A stretch of 64,000 nucleotides of DNA from Saprospiraceae bacterium (lineage in GTDB: Bacteria > Bacteroidota > Bacteroidia > Chitinophagales > Saprospiraceae). Positions 38,289 to 47,409 of this stretch are shown here, piece after piece (the first letter of the stretch is position 1; each line of letters opens with the position of its first letter). The notes beneath the pieces are model-generated. The model worked only from the letters and a program-made list of their open reading frames with translations. It was not told the origin of the DNA and did no database searches. A program made the position numbers and the translations under genes. The stretch covers positions 6,846 through 70,845 of the forward strand of contig JADZFD010000078.1 of the NCBI GenBank assembly GCA_020850225.1, in the 5' to 3' direction.

Positions 38289-38362
38289 GGTCTGGTAGTT
38301 CAGTTGGTTAGAATACATGCCTGTCACGCATGGGGTCGCGGGTTCGAGTCCCGTCCAGACCG
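38289..38362 (+). tRNA. tRNA-Asp (anticodon GUC)
   Basis: GGTCTGGTAGTTCAGTTGGTTAGAATACATGCCTGTCACGCATGGGGTCGCGGGTTCGAGTCCCGTCCAGACCG. It forms a cloverleaf with anticodon loop CT-GTC-AC and has no encoded CCA. Confidence 0.95.
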
Positions 38363-38369
38363 CTTAAAT

Positions 38370-38750: not shown

Positions 38751-40064
38751 TTAATTTCCGGTTTTCATTGTAAAACTTATATTATTCAGTTTTACAACCC
38801 AGGCATTCCATTCTCCTGTATGATGTTTATTGACATCGCCATCACTTGAAGAAGTGAATCCTGCCAGTACGAAACTATTGTTATCAGATGAAGTGACCGA
38901 ACAAGCTACATCCCAATCGGAACCACCTATTGTTTGTTCCCATTCAACAGATCCGGCGTAATTCAATTTTACTATCCAAATATCACTTCCGCCTTTATTT
39001 ATCCCAATATCTCCATTATCTGACTCTGTCCAACCTGTGACAATATACCCATCACTTCCCGAATTGATAACAGATGTTGCTGTATCATAACCCGATCCAC
39101 CCATTGATTTTTCCCACTCTAGATTGCCTGAAACATCCAGCTTGACTATCCATACATCTTCCTTGTCGTGGTGATTGGATACATGTCCATCAACTGACTC
39201 CGTAAACCCAACTACTAAGATACCATTATCAGCCGACTGAACGAGTGCATATCCTACGTCATTGTTACCTCCACCCAGTGATTTTTCCCACTCTAATATT
39301 CCTTTATTGTCAATTTTTAAAACCCACAGATCACCGGAACCATGATTTTTGCTTACATCACCATTACATGATTCTGTATAGCCACATAGTGCAAATCCAC
39401 CATCCAGAGTTTGTGTTATTGAGTACAATTCATCATAATCCGAACCTCCGTAAGTATATTGCCATTCCATGTCTCCGGACTGATTAAGTTTAACAATCCA
39501 GCCATCTGCCTTGCCCTTGTTCATAGCAATGTCATAATCTGATGATTCAGTAAATCCTGCAAGTACAAAACCATTGTCAGAAGTTTGAACCACAGAATTA
39601 AGAATATCAAATTCTGAACCACCTAAAGTTACATCCCATTCTACCTCTCCATTGCCATTTAATTTCAATACTCGGGCATCACCATTATTGATCCGGCCGG
39701 AATAGTTAAAATCACATGATGCTGAAAGTGCAGTAACAACATAACCACCATCATTCGTACAAACCACAGCATAAGCTTCATCAAATCCGGAACTTCCATA
39801 GTTTTGTTGCCATTCAACATTACCTCTGCTGCTTAATTTGGTTAACCAGATGTCTCCATAAATACACGCCTCACTGATTGCCATATCGCTTTCTATCTGT
39901 CCTGCTACTATAAAACCACCATCAGGTGTAGAAACTACATCACGTGCACTTGCCATTTTATGTCCTCCCAATACGTGTTGCCATTCAATGAATGACTGTC
40001 CTTTGATAAATCCTGCTGATGTTATCAACAGTAAAATAACGAGTAAAAAAATTTGCTTTTTCAT
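38751..40064 (-). CDS. secreted 7x58-aa repeat (predicted 7-bladed beta-propeller) protein, no C-terminal sorting domain
   Basis: The start is taken at MKKQIFLLVILLLITSAGFIKGQ (signal peptide). Seven tandem repeats follow, of the form EWxxxxGGSxxDxxxSVxQTxDGGFxxxGxTxSxDGDVxxxHGxxDxWxVKLxxxGxx. The protein ends ...VVKLNNISFTMKTGN with no CTD. Confidence 0.8.
   Translation of the reverse strand: MKKQIFLLVILLLITSAGFIKGQSFIEWQHVLGGHKMASARDVVSTPDGGFIVAGQIESDMAISEACIYGDIWLTKLSSRGNVEWQQNYGSSGFDEAYAVVCTNDGGYVVTALSASCDFNYSGRINNGDARVLKLNGNGEVEWDVTLGGSEFDILNSVVQTSDNGFVLAGFTESSDYDIAMNKGKADGWIVKLNQSGDMEWQYTYGGSDYDELYSITQTLDGGFALCGYTESCNGDVSKNHGSGDLWVLKIDNKGILEWEKSLGGGNNDVGYALVQSADNGILVVGFTESVDGHVSNHHDKEDVWIVKLDVSGNLEWEKSMGGSGYDTATSVINSGSDGYIVTGWTESDNGDIGINKGGSDIWIVKLNYAGSVEWEQTIGGSDWDVACSVTSSDNNSFVLAGFTSSSDGDVNKHHTGEWNAWVVKLNNISFTMKTGN
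38754..39995 (-). repeat. seven tandem ~58-aa protein repeats (paralogue C)
   Basis: The period was counted by hand, e.g. EWQYTYGGSDYDELYSITQTLDGGFALCGYTESCNGDVSKNHGSGDLWVLKIDNKGIL is 58 aa. Confidence 0.8.
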
Positions 40065-40277
40065 AATTAACAGATTTAAATTGTTACGTAATTTTAATAG
40101 TTTTTGCAATGAACATCAGGTACATTTTAGATATAAAAAGACATTAAAAGTATACTAACTCATTAAGAAAATGTTATGTAACCATTAAATTAGGATAAAT
40201 AATTATCCTGATGTATATATTGTCAATGATACCCGATGTTCGATTTTATAATTAATTTTTGCATTATATGGTTGAAA

Positions 40278-42803
40278 TTATTCTTTATTGAGTACAATTT
40301 TCCTTGTGATTGAGAAATCCTGCTTACTGAGTCGTACAAAATAGACCCCTGAATTCAATCTTGAGATATCGATGGACTGAACATCCAAAGGAAGGCTTTG
40401 AATCACTTTACCATCAATAGTAACTATCTCAGCAGATGTTATATCAGGGTCGTGATTAAGCCTGATAACACCAGAAGAAGGATTAGGATAAACATCTGAT
40501 TCAAGTGTAAAATTAGCGTCAACAGATGTGTGACTAATAATTTTAACTATACCGGTTTTCACATTCAAATTAGCATTTTCCATGTTATTATCAACAAACA
40601 TAGATGTAAAAGGAAGTGTTGACATCTTAATTTCAGTCAGGTTATCACCTTTGCCAATGATTCTGAATTTTAACTTCATACACACTGCATTAACAGCTAT
40701 TGTGTTACCTTTGTCCAGATTATCTGCTTCCCAAATCACACCCAAAACTCCATTTGAAACCAGTGTTTCATTAAAGTAATATTTTCCTGGAAATTTTGTT
40801 CCTGTATAAGAAACAGGTGATATCAATTGCAATTTATCCGTAGACCATGTTATTGAAAATTGCATTCCAACTCCATTCGTAAAGTTATTACATATCACAG
40901 GTACTTCAATTACTGATCCAGGAAACCCCTGCGCATTTTGAATCTTCAATTCAACATTGGTTAGGTTTGGGTTGAAAAAATCAGAATCATTTAATAAAGA
41001 ACTATGGTCGAGATCTCCCTTTTTATATCCGATAAACACCTGATTATCCTGATCTTTCCTTACATTCTTCAACGTGATAGCATAAGGAATTTCAACAAAA
41101 ATATTGGAATCTTTAACAGTTGACTGAGGTACAAAGTGCCATACATTTTCAATATCTTGATTATTATTTCCCATACTGGTTAAAATCTGTCTCATAGCGA
41201 GTACATCATCTTTATCCACATTATTGTCATTGTCAATATCAGCGGCCAGGTAGGTATACAAATCTTCAATTGATTTATCTCCTTCAAGATATTTTCTCAA
41301 AACAAGTACATCCTTGACGTTCATACCATTCGTAATATTATCCTTTTTATCAGCCTTCACAGTATAGTTTTTGCCATTTTGGAAAGCAGGAGAAATATAT
41401 CTTCCTGAATCATCAATTTCAAATGCTGATATGAGTTTCTCATCAGAAAAAACATTTATTTGTACATCTCTAACAGGGGCATAATCTGAAGTCACTACAT
41501 TTCCCGACATTTGAAATTCCTTACTTAGCTTACATATGAATCCTGAAGCTACGCCCTTTTGACCTTCAAAATCTCCATTTTTCGAATCAGTCGAGCCAAC
41601 GACAATATAATCATCTATACCTGAGCGTATAATATTTGTAGCCATATCGCGTTCTGATCCTCCTAATAGCTTTTGCCATTCTACAATACCTGACCTGTTA
41701 ATTTTTACAATCCAAGCATCTTCTTTACCATGGTGACCTATACTTTTTACCAGGTTAATAGTAGAATATCCAGCTACCATAAATCCTTCATCCGATGTTT
41801 GGACAATAGAAAATATCATATCATCTTTAGAACCTCCAATGTAATTTCTCCACTCTATTTCGCCTGAAGCATTAAGCTTAACTACCGATCCATTCCACTT
41901 GCTGTTTTTTGGATCTGAATCATCATATAATGAATTAGAATAACAAGCAAGTGCATAACCTCCATCAGCAGTACGAATCATATCACTGACAAAATCCAAG
42001 CCTTTTCCTTCAAATACTTTTTCCCATTCAATTTCTCCTAAAGCATTCAGTTTCAGCACACAGGCTTTTTGATATTGATTAAATTTCTTATCAGTTTCCT
42101 GAGTTTTCTTAAGACCCCATCCTGCTATAACTATACTAAAGTCACTAGTTTCCAATACTGACTTAGCTTCACCCTGATCAAGTGATGTAATTGTCTTATT
42201 CCATATAATTTCACCTGTGATATCAACTTTAACAAGCCACATTTTCCTGCCTGATAAAGTGCCGATTGAAACATCACCATTTCTTGAATGCGTGTATCCT
42301 GCTATCAATAAACTTCCATCAGCACTTTCTATGATATCATTCGCACCTTCCTGCAGTGTGCCTCCAATGGACTTTTTCCATTCAATATCACCTTTGGCAT
42401 TTAGTTTCAGGAGCCATATATCCTGTATGCCTTTGAGATCTGAAACATCTCCGTCAGATGATTTGGTTTCGCCCACGACTGCATACCCGCCATCAGATGT
42501 TTGAATAACTGCTGTTGCTCTCTCATCTTCAGAGCCACCCAGTATTTTCTGCCATTCTACTTTCTTACTGCTGTTCATTTTAACTATCCACATATCATAT
42601 TTGCCATGATAATTTTTCAAATTACCTGAAGAAGTTGATCCTGCCATTATAAAACCACCATCCTTAGTCTGGTTTACAGATAGCAGACTTTGTAATTCGG
42701 TACCACCTAACGTTCGGTTCCATACCATATCATGCTGACCAAATACTGCATTTGTCATTGTCATAATAATCCAAATACATCCGATTAAAAAAATCTTTTT
42801 CAT
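40278..42803 (-). CDS. secreted 7x58-aa repeat protein with CarboxypepD_reg-like, dockerin-like and cohesin-like modules and a T9SS type A CTD
   Basis: 841 aa. The order is signal peptide, seven repeats (residues ~24-427), and a dockerin-like EF-hand pair (NGMNVKDVLVLRKYL; DIDNDNNVDKDDVLAMRQIL). Then come a cohesin-like module (VELKIQNAQGFPGSVIEVPVICNNFTNGVGMQFSITWSTDKLQL...) and the CTD (VYPNPSSGVIRLN...GVYFVRLSKQ). Confidence 0.8.
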   Translation of the reverse strand: MKKIFLIGCIWIIMTMTNAVFGQHDMVWNRTLGGTELQSLLSVNQTKDGGFIMAGSTSSGNLKNYHGKYDMWIVKMNSSKKVEWQKILGGSEDERATAVIQTSDGGYAVVGETKSSDGDVSDLKGIQDIWLLKLNAKGDIEWKKSIGGTLQEGANDIIESADGSLLIAGYTHSRNGDVSIGTLSGRKMWLVKVDITGEIIWNKTITSLDQGEAKSVLETSDFSIVIAGWGLKKTQETDKKFNQYQKACVLKLNALGEIEWEKVFEGKGLDFVSDMIRTADGGYALACYSNSLYDDSDPKNSKWNGSVVKLNASGEIEWRNYIGGSKDDMIFSIVQTSDEGFMVAGYSTINLVKSIGHHGKEDAWIVKINRSGIVEWQKLLGGSERDMATNIIRSGIDDYIVVGSTDSKNGDFEGQKGVASGFICKLSKEFQMSGNVVTSDYAPVRDVQINVFSDEKLISAFEIDDSGRYISPAFQNGKNYTVKADKKDNITNGMNVKDVLVLRKYLEGDKSIEDLYTYLAADIDNDNNVDKDDVLAMRQILTSMGNNNQDIENVWHFVPQSTVKDSNIFVEIPYAITLKNVRKDQDNQVFIGYKKGDLDHSSLLNDSDFFNPNLTNVELKIQNAQGFPGSVIEVPVICNNFTNGVGMQFSITWSTDKLQLISPVSYTGTKFPGKYYFNETLVSNGVLGVIWEADNLDKGNTIAVNAVCMKLKFRIIGKGDNLTEIKMSTLPFTSMFVDNNMENANLNVKTGIVKIISHTSVDANFTLESDVYPNPSSGVIRLNHDPDITSAEIVTIDGKVIQSLPLDVQSIDISRLNSGVYFVRLSKQDFSITRKIVLNKE
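40281..40502 (-). other. T9SS type A C-terminal sorting domain of the 841-aa protein
   Basis: VYPNPSSGVIRLNHDPDITSAEIVTIDGKVIQSLPLDVQSIDISRLNSGVYFVRLSKQDFSITRKIVLNKE. Confidence 0.8.
40539..40967 (-). other. cohesin-like module
   Basis: Residues ~613-755. The pattern is a beta-sandwich starting VELKIQNAQGFPGSVIEVPV...GMQFSITWSTDKL...LKFRIIGKGDNLTEIKMS...GIVKI. Confidence 0.55.
41169..41351 (-). other. dockerin-like duplicated EF-hand segment
   Basis: Residues ~485-545. The D-x-D-x-D-x-x-x-D-x-x-D loop (DIDNDNNVDKDD) plus helix VLAMRQIL is preceded by a degenerate first copy, NITNGMNVKDVLVLRKYL. Confidence 0.6.
41523..42734 (-). repeat. seven tandem ~58-aa protein repeats (paralogue B)
   Basis: The repeats start VWNRTLGG, EWQKILGG, EWKKSIGG, IWNKTITS, EWEKVFEG, EWRNYIGG and EWQKLLGG. 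Confidence 0.8.
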
Positions 42804-42845
42804 GTTGTAAATTTTTAGAAGATTAAATAATTTTTATAGTTAGTT

Positions 42846-43217
42846 TTAAAAAATAATTCCCGTTTTCAAAGCAAATAGCACTAATTCCTGAACATTCCTG
42901 ATATTGCACTTGGCGTAAATATTTGACCGATGTTTTTCAACAGTGTTAATTGATATAAATAATTTTTCTGCTATCTCTGTAGTAGTTAGTCCAACACTTG
43001 TATATTTTGCAACTTCAATCTCCCTGTTGGTCAACTCATTACATTCATTACTGTTTATCTGCCGACAAATTTTCTGATTGATAAGTGCACACTTTTTCAT
43101 CAGACCTGTAAGCTTTTCGCATGGATATTTATGATTAACTTCTGCTTTATATTCCTTAATCATAGCTTCAATTTCCATAATTATCTGGTTTACGTCTTCA
43201 TTCAAAATCTTTGTCAT
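42846..43217 (-). CDS. LuxR/GerE-family helix-turn-helix transcriptional regulator without a receiver domain
   Basis: 123 aa. The C-terminal LTNREIEVAKYTSVGLTTTEIAEKLFISINTVEKHRSNIYAKCNI is a LuxR-type HTH. The ~60-aa N-terminal part is helical and carries 4 Cys. Confidence 0.8.
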   Translation of the reverse strand: MTKILNEDVNQIIMEIEAMIKEYKAEVNHKYPCEKLTGLMKKCALINQKICRQINSNECNELTNREIEVAKYTSVGLTTTEIAEKLFISINTVEKHRSNIYAKCNIRNVQELVLFALKTGIIF

Positions 43218-43332
43218 AGTCCATTTTATTAGGCTATATGAAACAATATATTATAATTAATAATTCATATTATACATTTAATATTCTTTATTGAATTATA
43301 GTAACCCTATTTTAAGTACATATAAATTAATT

Positions 43333-46300
43333 TTATCGCAATATTGTTACATTCCCATAAAATGTTTTTAAATTGTCATTTTTTAGCTTAACAGAGGCGA
43401 CCCATACATATACTCCAGTCGAAACCTTTTCACCATCCAATGTACCATTCCATCCCATTTCAGGAACATTGGGTGGAAAATTTTCATTTTGGAAAACCTT
43501 ATTACCCCATCGGTCAAAAACTGACATAGTATTAATTACTACATCCTGATTTGTGTAAGCCGTAAAATACCTGTTTCTTCCATTTCTTCCCAAAACATTA
43601 GGAAACTCGATATCCACACTTTCTTCTATTTGCAGTACCAAATGATAAATTGAATCGCATCCATGTGAAGTTGATAAAGCCTCAGTATACATACCGGCAT
43701 AGGCATATTCGACATTGGTTACCGGCCATCTGTATTTGTTTTCAGAAGTTATTGTATCAAAATATTCATATTCGGGATAAATCTGAAGGGACAATTCAAC
43801 TATTGAATCACAGCCGTATATATTAGAAAATATTTGACTATAACTTCCGCTTTCTTCATATAATTGATCTCCCCAGGCAAAGCTTCCACAGGAAGTTTGA
43901 TACACCGTCTCTACATTATTAGGATGGACAACCAAATCCAAAATCAGGAAGCTATCACATCCTAATACAGTTTCAGATTTGTAATAATACCGCCCACTTG
44001 TATCATGCATTATACCTTGCCAGTAATAAGGACTGCATGATTCTACATGTAAAAATAATTGTTCTTCCTTACCGACTCGAATTTCCAGCATACCTACAGA
44101 ATAGCATTGTGCTGATTTACGAACTCCATTTTTATAAGTAATGCGTACAAACAATGTTATGGATCCTGTAAAATATGTTCGTGGAGCTTGTATAAAATTA
44201 TCATTTCCCAAAATAGCTTCTGCAAACGACTTATAATAGGTAAAATTATAATAATCAGGTTTGTCAACAAAAAGCGATTCGCTTTCCGACAAATCAAATT
44301 CAGCCATCCCAATTCCTTCATCATCACATACTGTTGGCAATACAACCATTGAAGTCATGAGCTCAGGAGATGGTGTCACTTCAAGATACACCTTAATTAT
44401 ACGTATAAGTACACCTCTTTCATCCTCTACTCTTATAAATAAATTATTTGTATTGCCATCCTTGATATCTATCATTACAGGTAAATCAATATCCATTGAA
44501 TCCCTTTTTGCATCATCCAAACTCTTGAAAAAAGAATATTTCTCAATAGGGCATATATTGTAAAATGCTGGTTTTAAGTCTTGGTATTCAAAAAAAACTT
44601 TACCTGTTCCATTAATATCGCATTTACTTAGAGTGATACCATCTACTACACATTTGACATCTGCATTACCACCAAATGTCAGCGTATATCCTAATTTTGT
44701 TTGAGGTTTGCGGCTGACTGCAATTAAAATCTCATCATAACCCTGTACATCATAATGCTTTAAAAATCCGGATGATTTATGGGGTTTTGTTGTAGCATCT
44801 TCACAATATTCAACTGCTACAGGCGACAAACCTGTCATATACTGATGTGTAATCTCAGGATCATATAAAGAACTTCGAATATTCTGTTGTCCGGTTGATA
44901 AAAGATTACTCCAATCAGGATTGAGCCATGAAATAAAATCATAATCTTCATCGCCATCAGGTACAACAGTAAAAGTAAAAGTCGATCCTTTATTTATTCG
45001 TACCAGGTAAAAATCAGTATAAGGCGACAACAACTCATCATCGTTACAAAGGCTGCTTAAATAATTTATTGAAGTAACATTTGGAAGGTCTTTTTTAATT
45101 GACTCATTATCACATACTCTTGTTATCAAGTGTTCGGGTATGATAACCGGATTATTGACAATCGGTATATTGAGCTTAACAATCCATGCATCGAAACCGC
45201 CAAAATACTCTTTAATATCCCCGTCACTTGACTGTATCCATCCCGCCATTAAAAAACCTCCATCTTTAGTTTGTACGACTGTATTGGCAACATCATTTTC
45301 ACTTCCTCCTAAAGCCATCTGCCATTCTATACTACCTCTGCAATTAAGTTTGACAATCCACGCATCAAGCTCACCATGTTTATCTTTAATATTTGCGTCA
45401 TCCGATCCTGCCCATCCAGCAATGACATAGCCACCATCGTATGTTTGAACTACAGAATTTGCTGAATCACTGTCTGACCCACCCATTGTCCTTTGCCATT
45501 CAATATCACCAGTCTGATTGAGTTTGATTACCCACCCATCTTCAGAACCATGCTGACCCTTTACATCACCGTCATGGGACTCAGTTTTTCCCACCAGCAG
45601 ATACCCATAATCCTGCGTTTGGATAATATCATAAGCCCAATCACCCCAGGAACCACCCAACAATTTTTGCCATTCAATATCACCATTATTAGATAGTTTA
45701 CAAATCCACGCATCACTACCACCATGATTCCATGATTGGTTCTTATTCGATGATTCTGACCATCCGGCTATGGCATAGCCACCATCCAGCGTATTGACAA
45801 CAGACTGAGCTCTGTCATATCCTGAACCTCCAATGGTTTTCTGCCATACTAAAGTACCTGCATTATCCAGTCTAAAAACCCAGGAATCAAATCCACCATT
45901 ATTCCCGGTCATGGCTCCATCCGTTGATGATGTCCAGCCAACACCAATACACCCACCATCCGGAGTTGGTTTGATACTATATATATGATCAAAGCCAGAT
46001 GCCCCCAATACTGTTTTCCATATGATATTTCCTGATACATCGATTTTCAATACCCAACCATCGTCCTGTCCATGGTTTCCGGATACATCCCCGTCATGGG
46101 AATTGGTAGTACATGCTATTATAAACCCTTTATCTGATGTTTCAACAACATTATATCCCATCTCATTTCCACTACCTCCAAACGCTTTTTGCCATAAAAC
46201 ATCACCTTTACCACTGAGCTTGACTACCCAAACGTCATAACCACCATGATAAGTATCTATTCCAATGATCCTGGAATATGTATAACCTACCATAACATTG

Positions 46301-46449
46301 CTCCCATCTGAAACTTCAATCGCAGCGAGAGCACTTTCACCTCCTGAGCCACCTAATGTTTTTTGCCATGATATACCGGGTTGTCCCCAAGAACTAACAG
46401 TTGTAAGTACAACTAGAATCCATGTAATAAGTGTATTCGTATTTCTCAT
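43333..46449 (-). CDS. secreted 7x58-aa repeat protein with adhesin-like modules, three Cys modules and a T9SS type B (gliding-associated) CTD
   Basis: 1038 aa. The order is signal peptide, seven repeats (residues ~25-427), and a jelly-roll-like segment (YLVRINKGSTFTFTVVPDGDEDYDFISW). Then come three ~45-aa C..Y.W......SG.Y......GCDS...L.L modules. The C-terminus is FPNVLGRNG...VFDRWGNKVF...GWNGTLDGEKVSTGVYVWV...GNVTILR. Confidence 0.8.
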   Translation of the reverse strand: MRNTNTLITWILVVLTTVSSWGQPGISWQKTLGGSGGESALAAIEVSDGSNVMVGYTYSRIIGIDTYHGGYDVWVVKLSGKGDVLWQKAFGGSGNEMGYNVVETSDKGFIIACTTNSHDGDVSGNHGQDDGWVLKIDVSGNIIWKTVLGASGFDHIYSIKPTPDGGCIGVGWTSSTDGAMTGNNGGFDSWVFRLDNAGTLVWQKTIGGSGYDRAQSVVNTLDGGYAIAGWSESSNKNQSWNHGGSDAWICKLSNNGDIEWQKLLGGSWGDWAYDIIQTQDYGYLLVGKTESHDGDVKGQHGSEDGWVIKLNQTGDIEWQRTMGGSDSDSANSVVQTYDGGYVIAGWAGSDDANIKDKHGELDAWIVKLNCRGSIEWQMALGGSENDVANTVVQTKDGGFLMAGWIQSSDGDIKEYFGGFDAWIVKLNIPIVNNPVIIPEHLITRVCDNESIKKDLPNVTSINYLSSLCNDDELLSPYTDFYLVRINKGSTFTFTVVPDGDEDYDFISWLNPDWSNLLSTGQQNIRSSLYDPEITHQYMTGLSPVAVEYCEDATTKPHKSSGFLKHYDVQGYDEILIAVSRKPQTKLGYTLTFGGNADVKCVVDGITLSKCDINGTGKVFFEYQDLKPAFYNICPIEKYSFFKSLDDAKRDSMDIDLPVMIDIKDGNTNNLFIRVEDERGVLIRIIKVYLEVTPSPELMTSMVVLPTVCDDEGIGMAEFDLSESESLFVDKPDYYNFTYYKSFAEAILGNDNFIQAPRTYFTGSITLFVRITYKNGVRKSAQCYSVGMLEIRVGKEEQLFLHVESCSPYYWQGIMHDTSGRYYYKSETVLGCDSFLILDLVVHPNNVETVYQTSCGSFAWGDQLYEESGSYSQIFSNIYGCDSIVELSLQIYPEYEYFDTITSENKYRWPVTNVEYAYAGMYTEALSTSHGCDSIYHLVLQIEESVDIEFPNVLGRNGRNRYFTAYTNQDVVINTMSVFDRWGNKVFQNENFPPNVPEMGWNGTLDGEKVSTGVYVWVASVKLKNDNLKTFYGNVTILR
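43336..43620 (-). other. T9SS type B sorting domain (gliding motility-associated C-terminal domain)
   Basis: Residues ~944-1038. The hallmark motifs DRWGNxVF, W.G...G..v..GvY.w and G.vtllR are present. Confidence 0.75.
43621..44049 (-). repeat. three tandem ~45-50-aa Cys-containing modules ending in GCDS...L.L
   Basis: SCSPYYWQGIMHDTSGRYYYKSETVLGCDSFLILDLVVHP; SCGSFAWGDQLYEESGSYSQIFSNIYGCDSIVELSLQIYP; NKYRWPVTNVEYAYAGMYTEALSTSHGCDSIYHLVLQIEE. Confidence 0.7.
45169..46377 (-). repeat. seven tandem ~58-aa protein repeats (paralogue A)
   Basis: The repeats start SWQKTLGG, LWQKAFGG, IWKTVLGA, VWQKTIGG, EWQKLLGG, EWQRTMGG and EWQMALGG. Confidence 0.8.
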
Positions 46450-47043: not shown

Positions 47044-47409
47044 ATGAGAAAATTATTATTAATCATTTTAGTTGTCATTAATACACAATTAGAGGCTCAA
47101 GACCCCAGTTATCAGAATTTTGCACAAAACAGATTTCTTTTCAATCCATCCCTTACAGGTAGTTATGGAGCACAGAGCTGGATGGTACGTTCTAAGATGC
47201 AATGGAATAATGATGGAGGTAATGGATACAAAACGTTGAGTCTTTTGTTTGAGGAGACCATGCCGTGCAGTATTCTGGATATAGGTGCTAAAGTTAATTA
47301 CAATGAAGAAGGCGCCGGATTATACCGCACACTTGAGTTGGGATTTTTATCATCTGCATTACACAACAACACCATTTTTCACATTCCAATCACAAAACAA
47401 TTCGGATGA
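47044..47409 (+). pseudogene. truncated PorP/SprF family gene (121 codons, versus 341 in the full-length paralogue at 12142..13167)
   Basis: A signal peptide is followed by QDPSYQNFAQNRFLFNPSLTG...MQWNNDGGNGYKTLSLLFEE, which aligns with the N-terminal third of PorP/SprF. Only 78 nt separate its stop from the convergent ATPase stop, so the rest is absent rather than frameshifted. Confidence 0.65.

What the first reader, a model, noticed from the sequence alone, without database searches (positions are those of the whole stretch)
40539..41351. Dockerin-like and cohesin-like modules in the same T9SS-anchored polypeptide
The 841-aa paralogue carries a duplicated EF-hand dockerin-like segment (NITNGMNVKDVLVLRKYL ... 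DIDNDNNVDKDDVLAMRQIL). About 70 aa later it carries a cohesin-like beta-sandwich (VELKIQNAQGFPGSVIEVPVICNNFTNGVGMQFSITWSTDKLQL...), followed by a type A CTD.

Cohesin-dockerin pairs are the assembly glue of cellulosomes. Having both partners on one surface-anchored, non-enzymatic propeller protein suggests either head-to-tail self-polymerisation on the cell surface or recruitment of other dockerin or cohesin proteins encoded elsewhere.
Basis: inference. Interest (0 to 1): 0.65.

Follow-up and report, generated by a model that had tools for sequence, protein, structure and literature searches.

The report
Dockerin–cohesin cassette on T9SS surface protein
A secreted surface protein of a wastewater Saprospiraceae bacterium really does carry a dockerin-like and a cohesin module in one chain, and this is one copy of a widespread, apparently undescribed four-part cassette that sits just before the type IX secretion anchor and probably links surface proteins together.

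Summary
The ORF at 40278..42803 (-) encodes 841 aa with this layout:
- signal peptide
- SBBP-like β-propeller
- small CarboxypepD_reg-like β-sandwich (432-486)
- dockerin-like EF-hand pair (487-544)
- conserved linker 'X' (545-612)
- type-I-like cohesin (613-760)
- T9SS type A CTD (771-841)

The cohesin passes Pfam's curated cutoff, and its model matches solved cohesins (TM 0.76-0.82). The dockerin is below Pfam's cutoff on its own (12.4 vs 22.9 bits) and its first Ca loop is degenerate. However, it scores 49 bits against a family profile built without it, and that family's profile hits solved dockerins at 1e-10.

The new point is that this is not a one-off fusion. An exhaustive search shows sandwich–Doc–X–Coh recurring as one unit directly before a CTD on proteins with very different passengers: 109 of the best 149 hits, out of 3,658 hits in all. 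AlphaFold2 models it as one rigid body (pTM 0.83).

Function is inferred, not shown. I favour Ca-dependent cohesin–dockerin linking of anchored surface proteins in trans. A closed, cis-docked pedestal is the main rival.

The parts are known; the cassette is a new variant. Interest is moderate.

The parts
40278..42803 (-). Whole gene: 841-aa secreted surface protein (signal peptide, propeller, cassette, CTD)
   Evidence: ORF list. An identical or near-identical protein is in public assemblies on 39+ contigs. It is covered by contigs of four biofilm metatranscriptomes.
42738..42803 (-). Signal peptide, residues 1-22 (MKKIFLIGCIWIIMTMTNAVFG|Q)
   Evidence: Read directly from the sequence. The cleavage site is inferred; Gln follows the cut, as in many Bacteroidota signal peptidase I substrates (own knowledge).
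41520..42737 (-). SBBP/delta-60-like β-propeller passenger, residues ~23-428
   Evidence: 1,287 relatives share only this half. It is 34-36% identical to the two neighbouring paralogues. There are weak delta_60_rpt and propeller hits and no enzyme domain.
41346..41510 (-). CarboxypepD_reg-like small β-sandwich, residues 432-486 (first cassette module)
   Evidence: Pfam PF13620 is weak for the query (14.5 bits), but 21 of 26 cassette relatives match it. A family HMM built without the query gives 25.2 bits. The AF2 model shows five strands at pLDDT ~94.
41172..41345 (-). Dockerin-like duplicated EF-hand module, residues 487-544; loop 1 at 487-498 (degenerate, K487), loop 2 at 522-533 (canonical); helices 496-506, 515-521, 531-541
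   Evidence: Pfam Dockerin_1 is below threshold for the query. A family HMM built without the query gives 49.2 bits. The family profile hits solved dockerins at 1e-10. 21 of 26 relatives match PF00404, several above the cutoff. The ten best structural matches of the AF2 Doc+X model are all dockerins, e.g. 1ohz_B TM 0.74, rmsd 1.5 Å, with weak E-values.
40968..41171 (-). Conserved linker 'X', residues 545-612 (family motif W.FVP..Y.F..P.NPF…QDFIGIKLGDVN; invariant W556, F558, F591)
   Evidence: Alignment A2. A family HMM built without the query gives 34.6 bits. There is no Pfam or PDB sequence relative and no structural match. AF2 predicts β-strands at 555-559, 576-578 and 585-594.
40524..40967 (-). 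Type-I-like cohesin β-sandwich, residues 613-760
   Evidence: Pfam PF00963 31.3 bits, above the 24.1 cutoff. A family HMM built without the query gives 120.8 bits. The family profile hits 5nrk_A at 2.7e-13. Foldseek top 50 are all cohesins, TM(target) up to 0.82.
40281..40493 (-). T9SS type A C-terminal sorting domain, residues 771-841
   Evidence: TIGR04183 48 bits (cutoff 23) and PF18962 45.6 bits (cutoff 27).
38751..40109 (-). Paralogue 1: signal peptide plus the same propeller, with no C-terminal modules and no CTD
   Evidence: 34% identity to the 841-aa protein over 346 aa. Contains no cassette elements.
43333..46449 (-). Paralogue 2: the same propeller plus a middle region (FIDD) plus a T9SS type B CTD (CHU_C)
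   Evidence: 36% identity over 420 aa. PF13585 35.6 bits. PF26689 FIDD is on record for this gene.
42846..43217 (-). LuxR/GerE-type HTH protein (123 aa, no receiver domain) between the paralogues
   Evidence: PF00196 61.6 bits. One metatranscriptome contig spans 40314-44387.

Best explanation
What it is (high confidence). Residues ~430-770 of this T9SS-secreted, outer-membrane-anchored protein are one copy of a conserved four-module cassette. The cassette consists of a small CarboxypepD_reg-like β-sandwich, a type-I-like dockerin (an EF-hand pair), a conserved ~70-aa β-rich linker 'X', and a type-I-like cohesin. A type A CTD follows immediately. The cassette is a portable C-terminal unit that evolution has attached to many unrelated passengers; here the passenger is a non-enzymatic SBBP-like propeller.

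How it most likely works (inferred):
1. The protein is exported by Sec and then by the T9SS.
2. The CTD is removed and the new C-terminus, which is the end of the cohesin, is fixed to the cell surface.
3. Each anchored molecule therefore presents one cohesin and one Ca-dependent dockerin close to the membrane, with the propeller held outward.
4. The dockerin binds a cohesin of the same family on a neighbouring molecule. That neighbour may be another copy of this protein (head-to-tail) or another cassette or multi-cohesin protein of the cell.
5. This knits T9SS cargo into chains or patches on the surface.

Secretion signals, folds and homology are shown. Binding, Ca dependence, partner identity and the cis/trans choice are inferred.
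For: Module identities.

The cassette is a recurrent unit. Exhaustive phmmer with residues 475-770 gives 3,658 representative proteins at E<=1e-3 and 447 at E<=1e-10. Among the best 149, 109 align across the whole Doc–X–Coh stretch. In 89 of those 109 the cassette ends 50-140 aa before the C-terminus, and 89 of the 109 carry a PNP motif in the last 140 residues.

The passengers differ: FG-GAP, NHL, Amidase_3, MAM with P-domain, SprB repeats, cadherin. Several of these proteins pass Pfam cutoffs for Dockerin_1, Cohesin and Por_Secre_tail together.

Unpaired modules in the family imply partners in trans. 60 of 109 cassette proteins carry extra cohesin(s). 25 of 149 hits are cohesin-only arrays with up to 7-13 copies. 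10 of 149 have Doc–X without a cohesin; P0142 has four such units.

The family dockerin keeps two near-symmetric loop-helix segments, with an Arg/Lys pair at the helix positions that cellulosomal dockerins use for recognition (the role of those positions is from my own knowledge).

Precedent for self-recognition: the R. bromii Amy4 dockerin binds Amy4's own cohesin (PMC4611034).

Expression and constraint. The gene is covered in four metatranscriptomes at depths similar to accA. Strain variants show only conservative changes in the dockerin helices: V>I, V>I, T>S.
Against: No binding was tested.

AF2 gives pTM 0.83 for the four modules even though the linkers around X have low confidence. The cohesin is therefore predicted to pack against the sandwich–Doc–X part within one chain, which fits a closed cis state at least as well as a trans state.

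This protein's first Ca loop lacks the position-1 Asp (K487), and its dockerin is below Pfam's cutoff, so binding may be weakened.

No partner is encoded in the window, and the rest of the genome could not be surveyed.

The statistics come from the 150 best hits of a query that contains both modules, which biases them towards full cassettes.
Confidence: 0.42

Rival explanations
1. Closed pedestal (cis). The dockerin is docked permanently on the cohesin of the same chain, and/or the four modules pack through X. The cassette is then a rigid, Ca-stabilised stalk that spaces the passenger from the membrane and presents the CTD to the T9SS. It has no role in linking proteins.
For: - The order and spacing of Doc–X–Coh are fixed in 109 of 149 diverse proteins, with 1:1 stoichiometry inside the cassette.
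- AF2 pTM is 0.83 for 346 residues, even though residues 545-550 and ~605-614 have low confidence. This implies a non-covalent interface between the cohesin and the upstream modules.
- X is more confident in the full cassette than in Doc+X alone: pLDDT 94-95 vs 77-83 for the same strands.
- Domains that sit just before the CTD as spacers are common in T9SS cargo (own knowledge).
Against: - Doc–X units occur without any cohesin (P0142 has four), so the dockerin does not need a downstream cohesin to fold.
- More than half of cassette proteins carry extra, unpaired cohesins, and many proteins are cohesin-only arrays. These need partners in trans.
- A monomer AF2 model cannot distinguish a cis contact from a homotypic trans contact.
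- The interface itself was not seen.
Confidence: 0.33
2. Hetero-recruitment only. The cohesin and dockerin of this protein do not recognise each other, as in clostridial adaptor scaffoldins. Each binds a different partner encoded elsewhere. The protein is then an adaptor in a cellulosome-like surface complex that may carry enzymes.
For: - In characterised scaffoldins a cohesin and dockerin on one chain have different specificities (own knowledge).
- Some relatives with cassettes carry enzymes, e.g. Amidase_3.
- A T9SS-anchored scaffoldin-like protein with dockerin-bearing enzymes has been inferred in Cloacimonadota (PMC8542988).
Against: - No dockerin- or cohesin-bearing gene lies nearby.
- The passenger here is non-enzymatic.
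- The rigid AF2 model suggests the modules of one cassette fit each other.
- The genome census was not possible.
Confidence: 0.15
3. Relic folds. The cohesin-like and dockerin-like modules are only structural β-sandwich and helical fillers that no longer bind anything, or that bind a non-protein ligand such as a glycan.
For: - The query's dockerin is divergent: 12.4 bits against Pfam, with K487 in loop 1.
- Many non-cellulosomal cohesin and dockerin homologues have no demonstrated partner (own knowledge).
Against: - Both EF-hand segments and the cohesin are strongly conserved across thousands of proteins.
- D498, D533, D522 and A520 are invariant or nearly so.
- Strain variants show only conservative substitutions.
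Confidence: 0.1

Closest known systems
Type I cohesin–dockerin pairs of clostridial cellulosomes (e.g. 1OHZ, 5NRK, 4UYP)
   Same: The cohesin has the same β-sandwich fold (TM 0.76-0.82). The dockerin has the same duplicated EF-hand loop-helix layout with three helices. The family profile hits these proteins at 1e-8 to 1e-13.
   Different: The host is an aerobic-type wastewater Bacteroidota, not a cellulolytic Firmicute. Anchoring is by a T9SS CTD rather than SLH or sortase. There is no CBM and no glycoside hydrolase. Both modules sit in one fixed cassette with a sandwich and the X linker. Loop positions 6-7 of the dockerin are N-G instead of G-x.
Ruminococcus bromii Amy4 (amylosome)
   Same: One polypeptide carries both a cohesin and a dockerin. 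Amy4's dockerin binds its own cohesin, which is predicted to give multimers (PMC4611034).
   Different: Amy4 is an enzyme of a Gram-positive bacterium. Its modules are far apart and are not a conserved cassette. Binding was shown experimentally for Amy4, but not for this protein.
Non-cellulosomal cohesin/dockerin proteins of Archaeoglobus fulgidus (cohesin 2XDH)
   Same: The modules occur outside any cellulosome, and both kinds are on record in one organism or protein. The cohesin model matches 2xdh at TM 0.81.
   Different: The organism is an archaeon with no T9SS, and there is no sandwich–Doc–X–Coh arrangement.
X-dockerin dyads of type II/III systems (e.g. 2B59, 4FL4, 5M0Y)
   Same: A dockerin is flanked by a conserved non-catalytic module that is likely to buttress it.
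   Different: In those dyads X is an Ig-like module placed before the dockerin. Here the conserved X follows the dockerin, has no sequence or structural match to those X modules, and is paired with a CarboxypepD_reg-like sandwich upstream.
Inferred T9SS-anchored scaffoldin of 'Ca. Stygibacter' (Cloacimonadota)
   Same: Cohesins are combined with a T9SS-type CTD for self-surface attachment, with dockerin-bearing partners (PMC8542988).
   Different: That system has a separate scaffoldin with tandem cohesins plus separate dockerin enzymes, known from annotation only. It is not a single-chain Doc–X–Coh cassette.

Membership tests
Cohesin (Pfam PF00963) | Profile match at or above the curated gathering score | tested here: met
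   31.3 bits vs cutoff 24.1, residues 617-731. Precomputed Pfam for the database copy also lists PF00963.
Cohesin (Pfam PF00963) | Nine-stranded β-sandwich (jelly-roll) fold like solved cohesins | tested here: met
   AF2 pLDDT is ~92-96 over the module. The 50 best Foldseek PDB matches are all cohesins, E down to 2e-12, TM(target) 0.76-0.82.
Cohesin (Pfam PF00963) | Binds a dockerin | not testable with these tools
   Needs a binding assay or a multimer model with an inspectable interface.
Dockerin type I (Pfam PF00404) | Profile match at or above the curated gathering score | tested here: not met
   The query alone gives 12.4 bits vs cutoff 22.9, E 0.2. Relatives of the same module do pass: 24.8-31.3 bits, and 21 of 26 match at E<=0.1. 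The query scores 49.2 bits against the relatives' module HMM.
Dockerin type I (Pfam PF00404) | Two ~22-residue segments, each a 12-residue EF-hand Ca loop followed by a helix | tested here: inconclusive
   Segment 2 is canonical (D522, D524, D526, D530, D533). Segment 1 has K487 at position 1 but keeps N489, T491, N495 and D498. The two loops start 35 residues apart, as in dockerins.
Dockerin type I (Pfam PF00404) | Three-helix dockerin fold | tested here: met
   AF2 places helices at 496-506, 515-521 and 531-541 with pLDDT ~90. The ten best Foldseek matches of the Doc+X model are dockerins (TM(target) 0.53-0.75, apart from 0.32 for the 138-residue double-dockerin 8x39_B; rmsd 1.5-4.9 Å). E-values are only 0.6-3 because the module is small.
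Dockerin type I (Pfam PF00404) | Ca-dependent binding to a cohesin | not testable with these tools
   Needs ITC or pull-down with and without EDTA.
T9SS type A cargo | C-terminal type A sorting domain above the curated cutoff, plus an N-terminal signal peptide | tested here: met
   TIGR04183 48 bits vs 23 and PF18962 45.6 vs 27. The N-terminus is hydrophobic and ends AVFG|Q. The host is Saprospiraceae, Bacteroidota.
Cellulosome / scaffoldin system | A scaffoldin with several cohesins, plus dockerin-bearing carbohydrate-active enzymes and a CBM in the same organism | tested here: not met
   Only this ORF in the 64-kb window has a cohesin or dockerin. It has one cohesin, no CBM and no enzyme. 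The rest of the genome could not be surveyed.
Self-recognising Coh+Doc proteins (Amy4 type) | The protein's own dockerin binds its own cohesin | not testable with these tools
   Only indirect evidence is available: AF2 packs the modules as one body (pTM 0.83), and the interface was not visible.

The most novel reading that the evidence does not exclude
The sandwich–Doc–X–Coh cassette is a general, so far undescribed surface-assembly device of environmental Bacteroidota. Every T9SS cargo that carries it is anchored with one cohesin and one matching dockerin next to the membrane. Different passengers (propellers, adhesins, amidases, proteases) would then polymerise head-to-tail, or plug into multi-cohesin proteins, to form a Ca-dependent modular surface coat. 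This would be a Gram-negative, T9SS-based counterpart of the cellulosome principle, used for cell-surface architecture rather than cellulose breakdown.
Probability: 0.25. Interest if true: 0.75.

Novelty: new variant of a known kind. Interest (0 to 1): 0.5.

Why it matters
Cohesin–dockerin pairing is the best-understood protein 'plug and socket' in microbiology, but it is known almost only from Gram-positive cellulosomes and amylosomes. This work shows a fixed dockerin–linker–cohesin cassette placed directly before the T9SS anchor on thousands of Bacteroidota-type surface proteins with unrelated passengers. If the two modules bind in trans, that would explain how T9SS cargo are organised on the cell surface, which is an open question. 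It would matter for floc and biofilm formation by Saprospiraceae in wastewater plants. It would also supply new orthogonal Coh–Doc pairs and a natural Gram-negative display scaffold for synthetic biology. If they bind in cis, the cassette is an example of a protein–protein interaction pair turned into an intramolecular clasp. Either outcome can be tested directly with two small recombinant fragments.

Tried and rejected
- The word-indexed homolog search with the C-terminal fragment returned nothing, not even the protein itself. With the cassette profile it returned only 2 proteins. The exhaustive search was what worked.
- The genome-contig scan with the whole protein found no relative. The cassette alignment was not conserved enough for pattern scanning.
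- The key review on non-cellulosomal cohesins and dockerins (Peer et al. 2009) is not held. Six literature searches found no description of this cassette. That is absence from the held library only.
- Foldseek on Doc+X gave dockerins as the best matches but with non-significant E-values. I treat this as consistent, not decisive.
- X had no match to anything.
- Model coordinates and PAE are not exposed, so I could not see whether the dockerin touches the cohesin. The pTM argument is indirect.
- I considered Doc–Coh covariation (DCA or mutual information) but dropped it. About 115 cassettes is far too few, and shared ancestry would dominate.
- The sigma-70 promoter scan was uninformative: 50 sites vs 48 expected. 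Bacteroidota promoters also differ from that consensus.
- The HMM scores included the query in the training alignment. They were redone without it.
- I rejected the reading 'part of a cellulosome'. There is no enzyme, CBM or second module nearby, and the host is an activated-sludge Saprospiraceae.
Full report
**Observation**

The window holds an 841-aa ORF at 40278..42803 on the minus strand. The finding's coordinates correspond to residues 485-755, and both quoted peptides are present. Profile searches give the layout:
- a hydrophobic N-terminal signal peptide ending AVFG|Q
- a ~400-aa repeat region with only weak propeller-type hits (delta-60/SBBP-like) and no enzyme domain
- a weak CarboxypepD_reg-like hit at 432-486
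- a Dockerin_1 hit at 495-540 that is below Pfam's cutoff (12.4 vs 22.9 bits, E 0.2)
- a Cohesin hit at 617-731 above the cutoff (31.3 vs 24.1 bits)
- a T9SS type A sorting domain at 771-838 well above its cutoffs (TIGR04183, 48 vs 23 bits)

On the query alone, then, the cohesin and CTD calls are sound and the dockerin call is not.

**Is the dockerin real?**

An exhaustive HMMER search of 1.84 billion representative proteins with residues 475-770 gave 3,658 hits at E<=1e-3 and 447 at E<=1e-10. Most of the best hits align across the entire query in a single stretch.

I cut 26 such regions into alignment A1. Its profile hits solved cohesins (5nrk_A 2.7e-13, 4ums_A 1e-11). Over profile positions 63-125 it separately hits solved dockerins (4uyq_B 1.1e-10, 8x3a_A 3e-10, 5nrk_B 2e-8, 4dh2_B 1.6e-8). 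Scanned one by one, 23 of 26 members match Pfam Cohesin, 21 of 26 match Dockerin_1 (best 1e-9), and 21 of 26 match CarboxypepD_reg. Several full-length relatives pass Pfam's curated cutoffs for Dockerin_1, Cohesin and the T9SS tail together.

HMMs of each module built without the query score the query as follows:

| Module | Bits | Residues |
|---|---|---|
| Dockerin | 49.2 | 486-541 |
| X | 34.6 | 553-602 |
| Cohesin | 120.8 | 615-759 |
| β-sandwich | 25.2 | 431-484 |

The dockerin is therefore established by a two-step chain: the query matches the family module, and the family module matches solved dockerins.

In the alignment D498 and D533 (position 12 of each Ca loop) are invariant, and A520 and D522 are nearly so. 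Loop 2 of the query is a textbook EF-hand loop. Loop 1 has Lys487 where relatives have Asp/Asn, so the first Ca site of this particular protein may be weak or lost.

**Structure**

AlphaFold2 on A1 (residues 425-770) gave mean pLDDT 87.8 and pTM 0.83. The model shows a five-strand sandwich, three helices (496-506, 515-521, 531-541), three strands in the linker, and then a large β-sandwich. Foldseek against the PDB returned only cohesins among the top 50 (E down to 2e-12, TM normalised to target 0.76-0.82). These include the non-cellulosomal A. fulgidus cohesin.

A second model of Doc+X alone (residues 484-612) had pLDDT 83.9 and pTM 0.77. Its ten best PDB matches were all dockerins (1ohz_B: TM 0.74, rmsd 1.5 Å over 48 columns). 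The E-values were 0.6-3, as expected for a ~55-residue module.

The ~70-residue linker 'X' is well conserved (W.FVP..Y.F..P.NPF…QDFIGIKLGDVN; W556, F558 and F591 invariant). It has no Pfam, PDB-sequence or structural match.

**The cassette**

Among the 149 best representative hits:
- 109 contain the full Doc–X–Coh stretch, usually with the sandwich in front.
- In 89 of those 109 the cassette ends 50-140 residues before the C-terminus, and 89 of the 109 have a PNP motif typical of type A CTDs in the last 140 residues.
- 60 of 109 carry one or more additional cohesins, often directly upstream.
- 25 hits are cohesin-only arrays.
- 10 have Doc–X without a cohesin. P0142 has four sandwich–Doc–X units and a CTD.

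The passengers are unrelated to each other: FG-GAP and NHL propellers, an N-acetylmuramoyl-L-alanine amidase, MAM with a P-domain, SprB repeats, cadherin/Ig.

Conversely, the 1,287 relatives found with the whole protein share only the propeller. The cassette's nearest relatives (≤35% identity) sit on other passengers. So the cassette is a shuffled, portable unit, and this propeller-cassette fusion is confined to one species-level cluster of 8 near-identical sequences. Those variants differ at 11 positions. The three changes in the dockerin are conservative: V>I, V>I, T>S.

**Context**

The host is a Saprospiraceae bacterium. AccA is 91% identical to a Chitinophagales MAG and 70-85% identical to many Saprospiraceae MAGs. 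The gene occurs at full k-mer identity in activated-sludge, wastewater and bioreactor metagenomes from 2015 to 2025.

It is covered by contigs in four biofilm metatranscriptomes at depths comparable with the neighbouring accA. One contig spans 40314-44387. This suggests expression, with the caveat that contig depth is a crude measure and DNA carry-over is possible.

The gene is the middle one of three tandem paralogues that share the propeller at 34-41% identity but end differently:
- 38751..40109: nothing after the propeller
- 40278..42803 (this gene): the cassette plus a type A CTD
- 43333..46449: a FIDD region plus a type B CTD

A LuxR/GerE HTH-only gene lies between two of them. No other ORF in any frame of the window matches the dockerin, X or cohesin HMMs.

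**Mechanism**

Shown:
- Secretion and anchoring signals are present.
- The folds and homology of both modules are established.
- The cassette is a conserved unit.
- The gene is probably expressed.

Inferred: what the modules bind.

Arguments for linking in trans:
- The family contains many unpaired cohesins and some unpaired dockerins, and these need partners.
- The dockerin keeps two near-symmetric loop-helix segments, with basic residues at the helix positions used for recognition in cellulosomal dockerins (the role of those positions is from my own knowledge).
- There is experimental precedent for a protein whose dockerin binds its own cohesin and multimerises: R. bromii Amy4 (PMC4611034).

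Arguments for a closed cis state:
- Order and spacing are fixed, and stoichiometry within the cassette is 1:1.
- pTM is 0.83 although the loops on both sides of X are low-confidence. That is hard to obtain unless AF2 packs the cohesin against the sandwich–Doc–X part through a non-covalent interface.

A monomer model cannot distinguish an intramolecular contact from a homotypic intermolecular one, and I could not inspect coordinates. My estimates are: assembly in trans (self or partner) ~0.42, closed pedestal ~0.33, hetero-recruitment only ~0.15, relic folds ~0.10.

**Comparison with what is known**

The modules are type-I-like cohesin and dockerin. The protein is not part of a cellulosome in any tested sense: it has no enzyme, no CBM, a single cohesin, a Bacteroidota host and T9SS anchoring.

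The closest functional analogue is Amy4. The closest architectural idea in the held literature is the annotation-based 'cellulosome-like' system of Ca. Stygibacter, with a CTD-bearing multi-cohesin protein (PMC8542988). X-dockerin dyads resemble the Doc–X pairing, but the order is reversed and there is no detectable similarity.

Six full-text searches found no description of the sandwich–Doc–X–Coh–CTD cassette. The main review of non-cellulosomal modules is not held, so earlier mention cannot be excluded. A newer Pfam family (PF27624), on record for one relative, could not be examined.

**Verdict**

- The parts are known kinds. The conserved cassette and its coupling to the T9SS anchor are a new variant worth a simple binding experiment.
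- Interest: 0.5.

Noticed in passing
window 38751..40109 (-), 40278..42803 (-), 43333..46449 (-): Three tandem paralogues share a ~420-aa SBBP-like propeller (34-41% identity). They have three different C-terminal fates: none, the cassette plus a type A CTD, and a FIDD region plus a type B CTD (CHU_C). This amounts to a natural comparison of how one passenger is targeted.
   Followed up: partly
window 47044..47409 (+); L001:1535-2671: The PorP/SprF-like gene next to the type B CTD paralogue is only 121 aa in the window. In the MAG contig L001 the same gene continues to 378 aa. The 99.99% identity between L001 and the window stops at window position 47357. Three independent assemblies (L004-L006) share the window's truncated form, so this looks like a strain-level rearrangement.
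   Followed up: partly
window 38289..38363 (+): A tRNA-Asp (GTC) lies at one edge of the low-GC (0.33-0.35) propeller-gene island at 38.7-47.4 kb; flanking DNA is ~0.40 GC. Metatranscriptome contigs show loose ends exactly at 38289/38294. This may be a variable or acquired island.
   Followed up: partly
window 42846..43217 (-): A 123-aa LuxR/GerE helix-turn-helix protein without a receiver or ligand domain sits between two paralogues. One metatranscriptome contig (run X27) spans 40314-44387, so it may be co-transcribed with them.
   Followed up: no
relative P0277 (460 aa), not in the window: The precomputed Pfam list for this cassette relative includes PF27624.1, a family absent from the local Pfam copy. 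The local scan finds no cohesin there. PF27624 may be a recently curated model of X or of this cohesin subtype.
   Followed up: partly
window 42735..42737, ~40005..40007 and ~46380..46382 (codons after the predicted signal-peptide cuts): All three paralogues have Gln immediately after the predicted signal-peptide cleavage site (AVFG|Q, IKG|Q, SWG|Q). This fits the Bacteroidota 'Q-rule' of N-terminal pyroglutamate, which I recall from my own knowledge and did not test.
   Followed up: no
relatives P0130, P0136, P0141, P0148 (not in the window): Some hits are long arrays of 6-13 tandem cohesins with no dockerin, in proteins from the same kind of environmental assemblies. These are candidate scaffoldin-like partners for cassette dockerins.
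   Followed up: no
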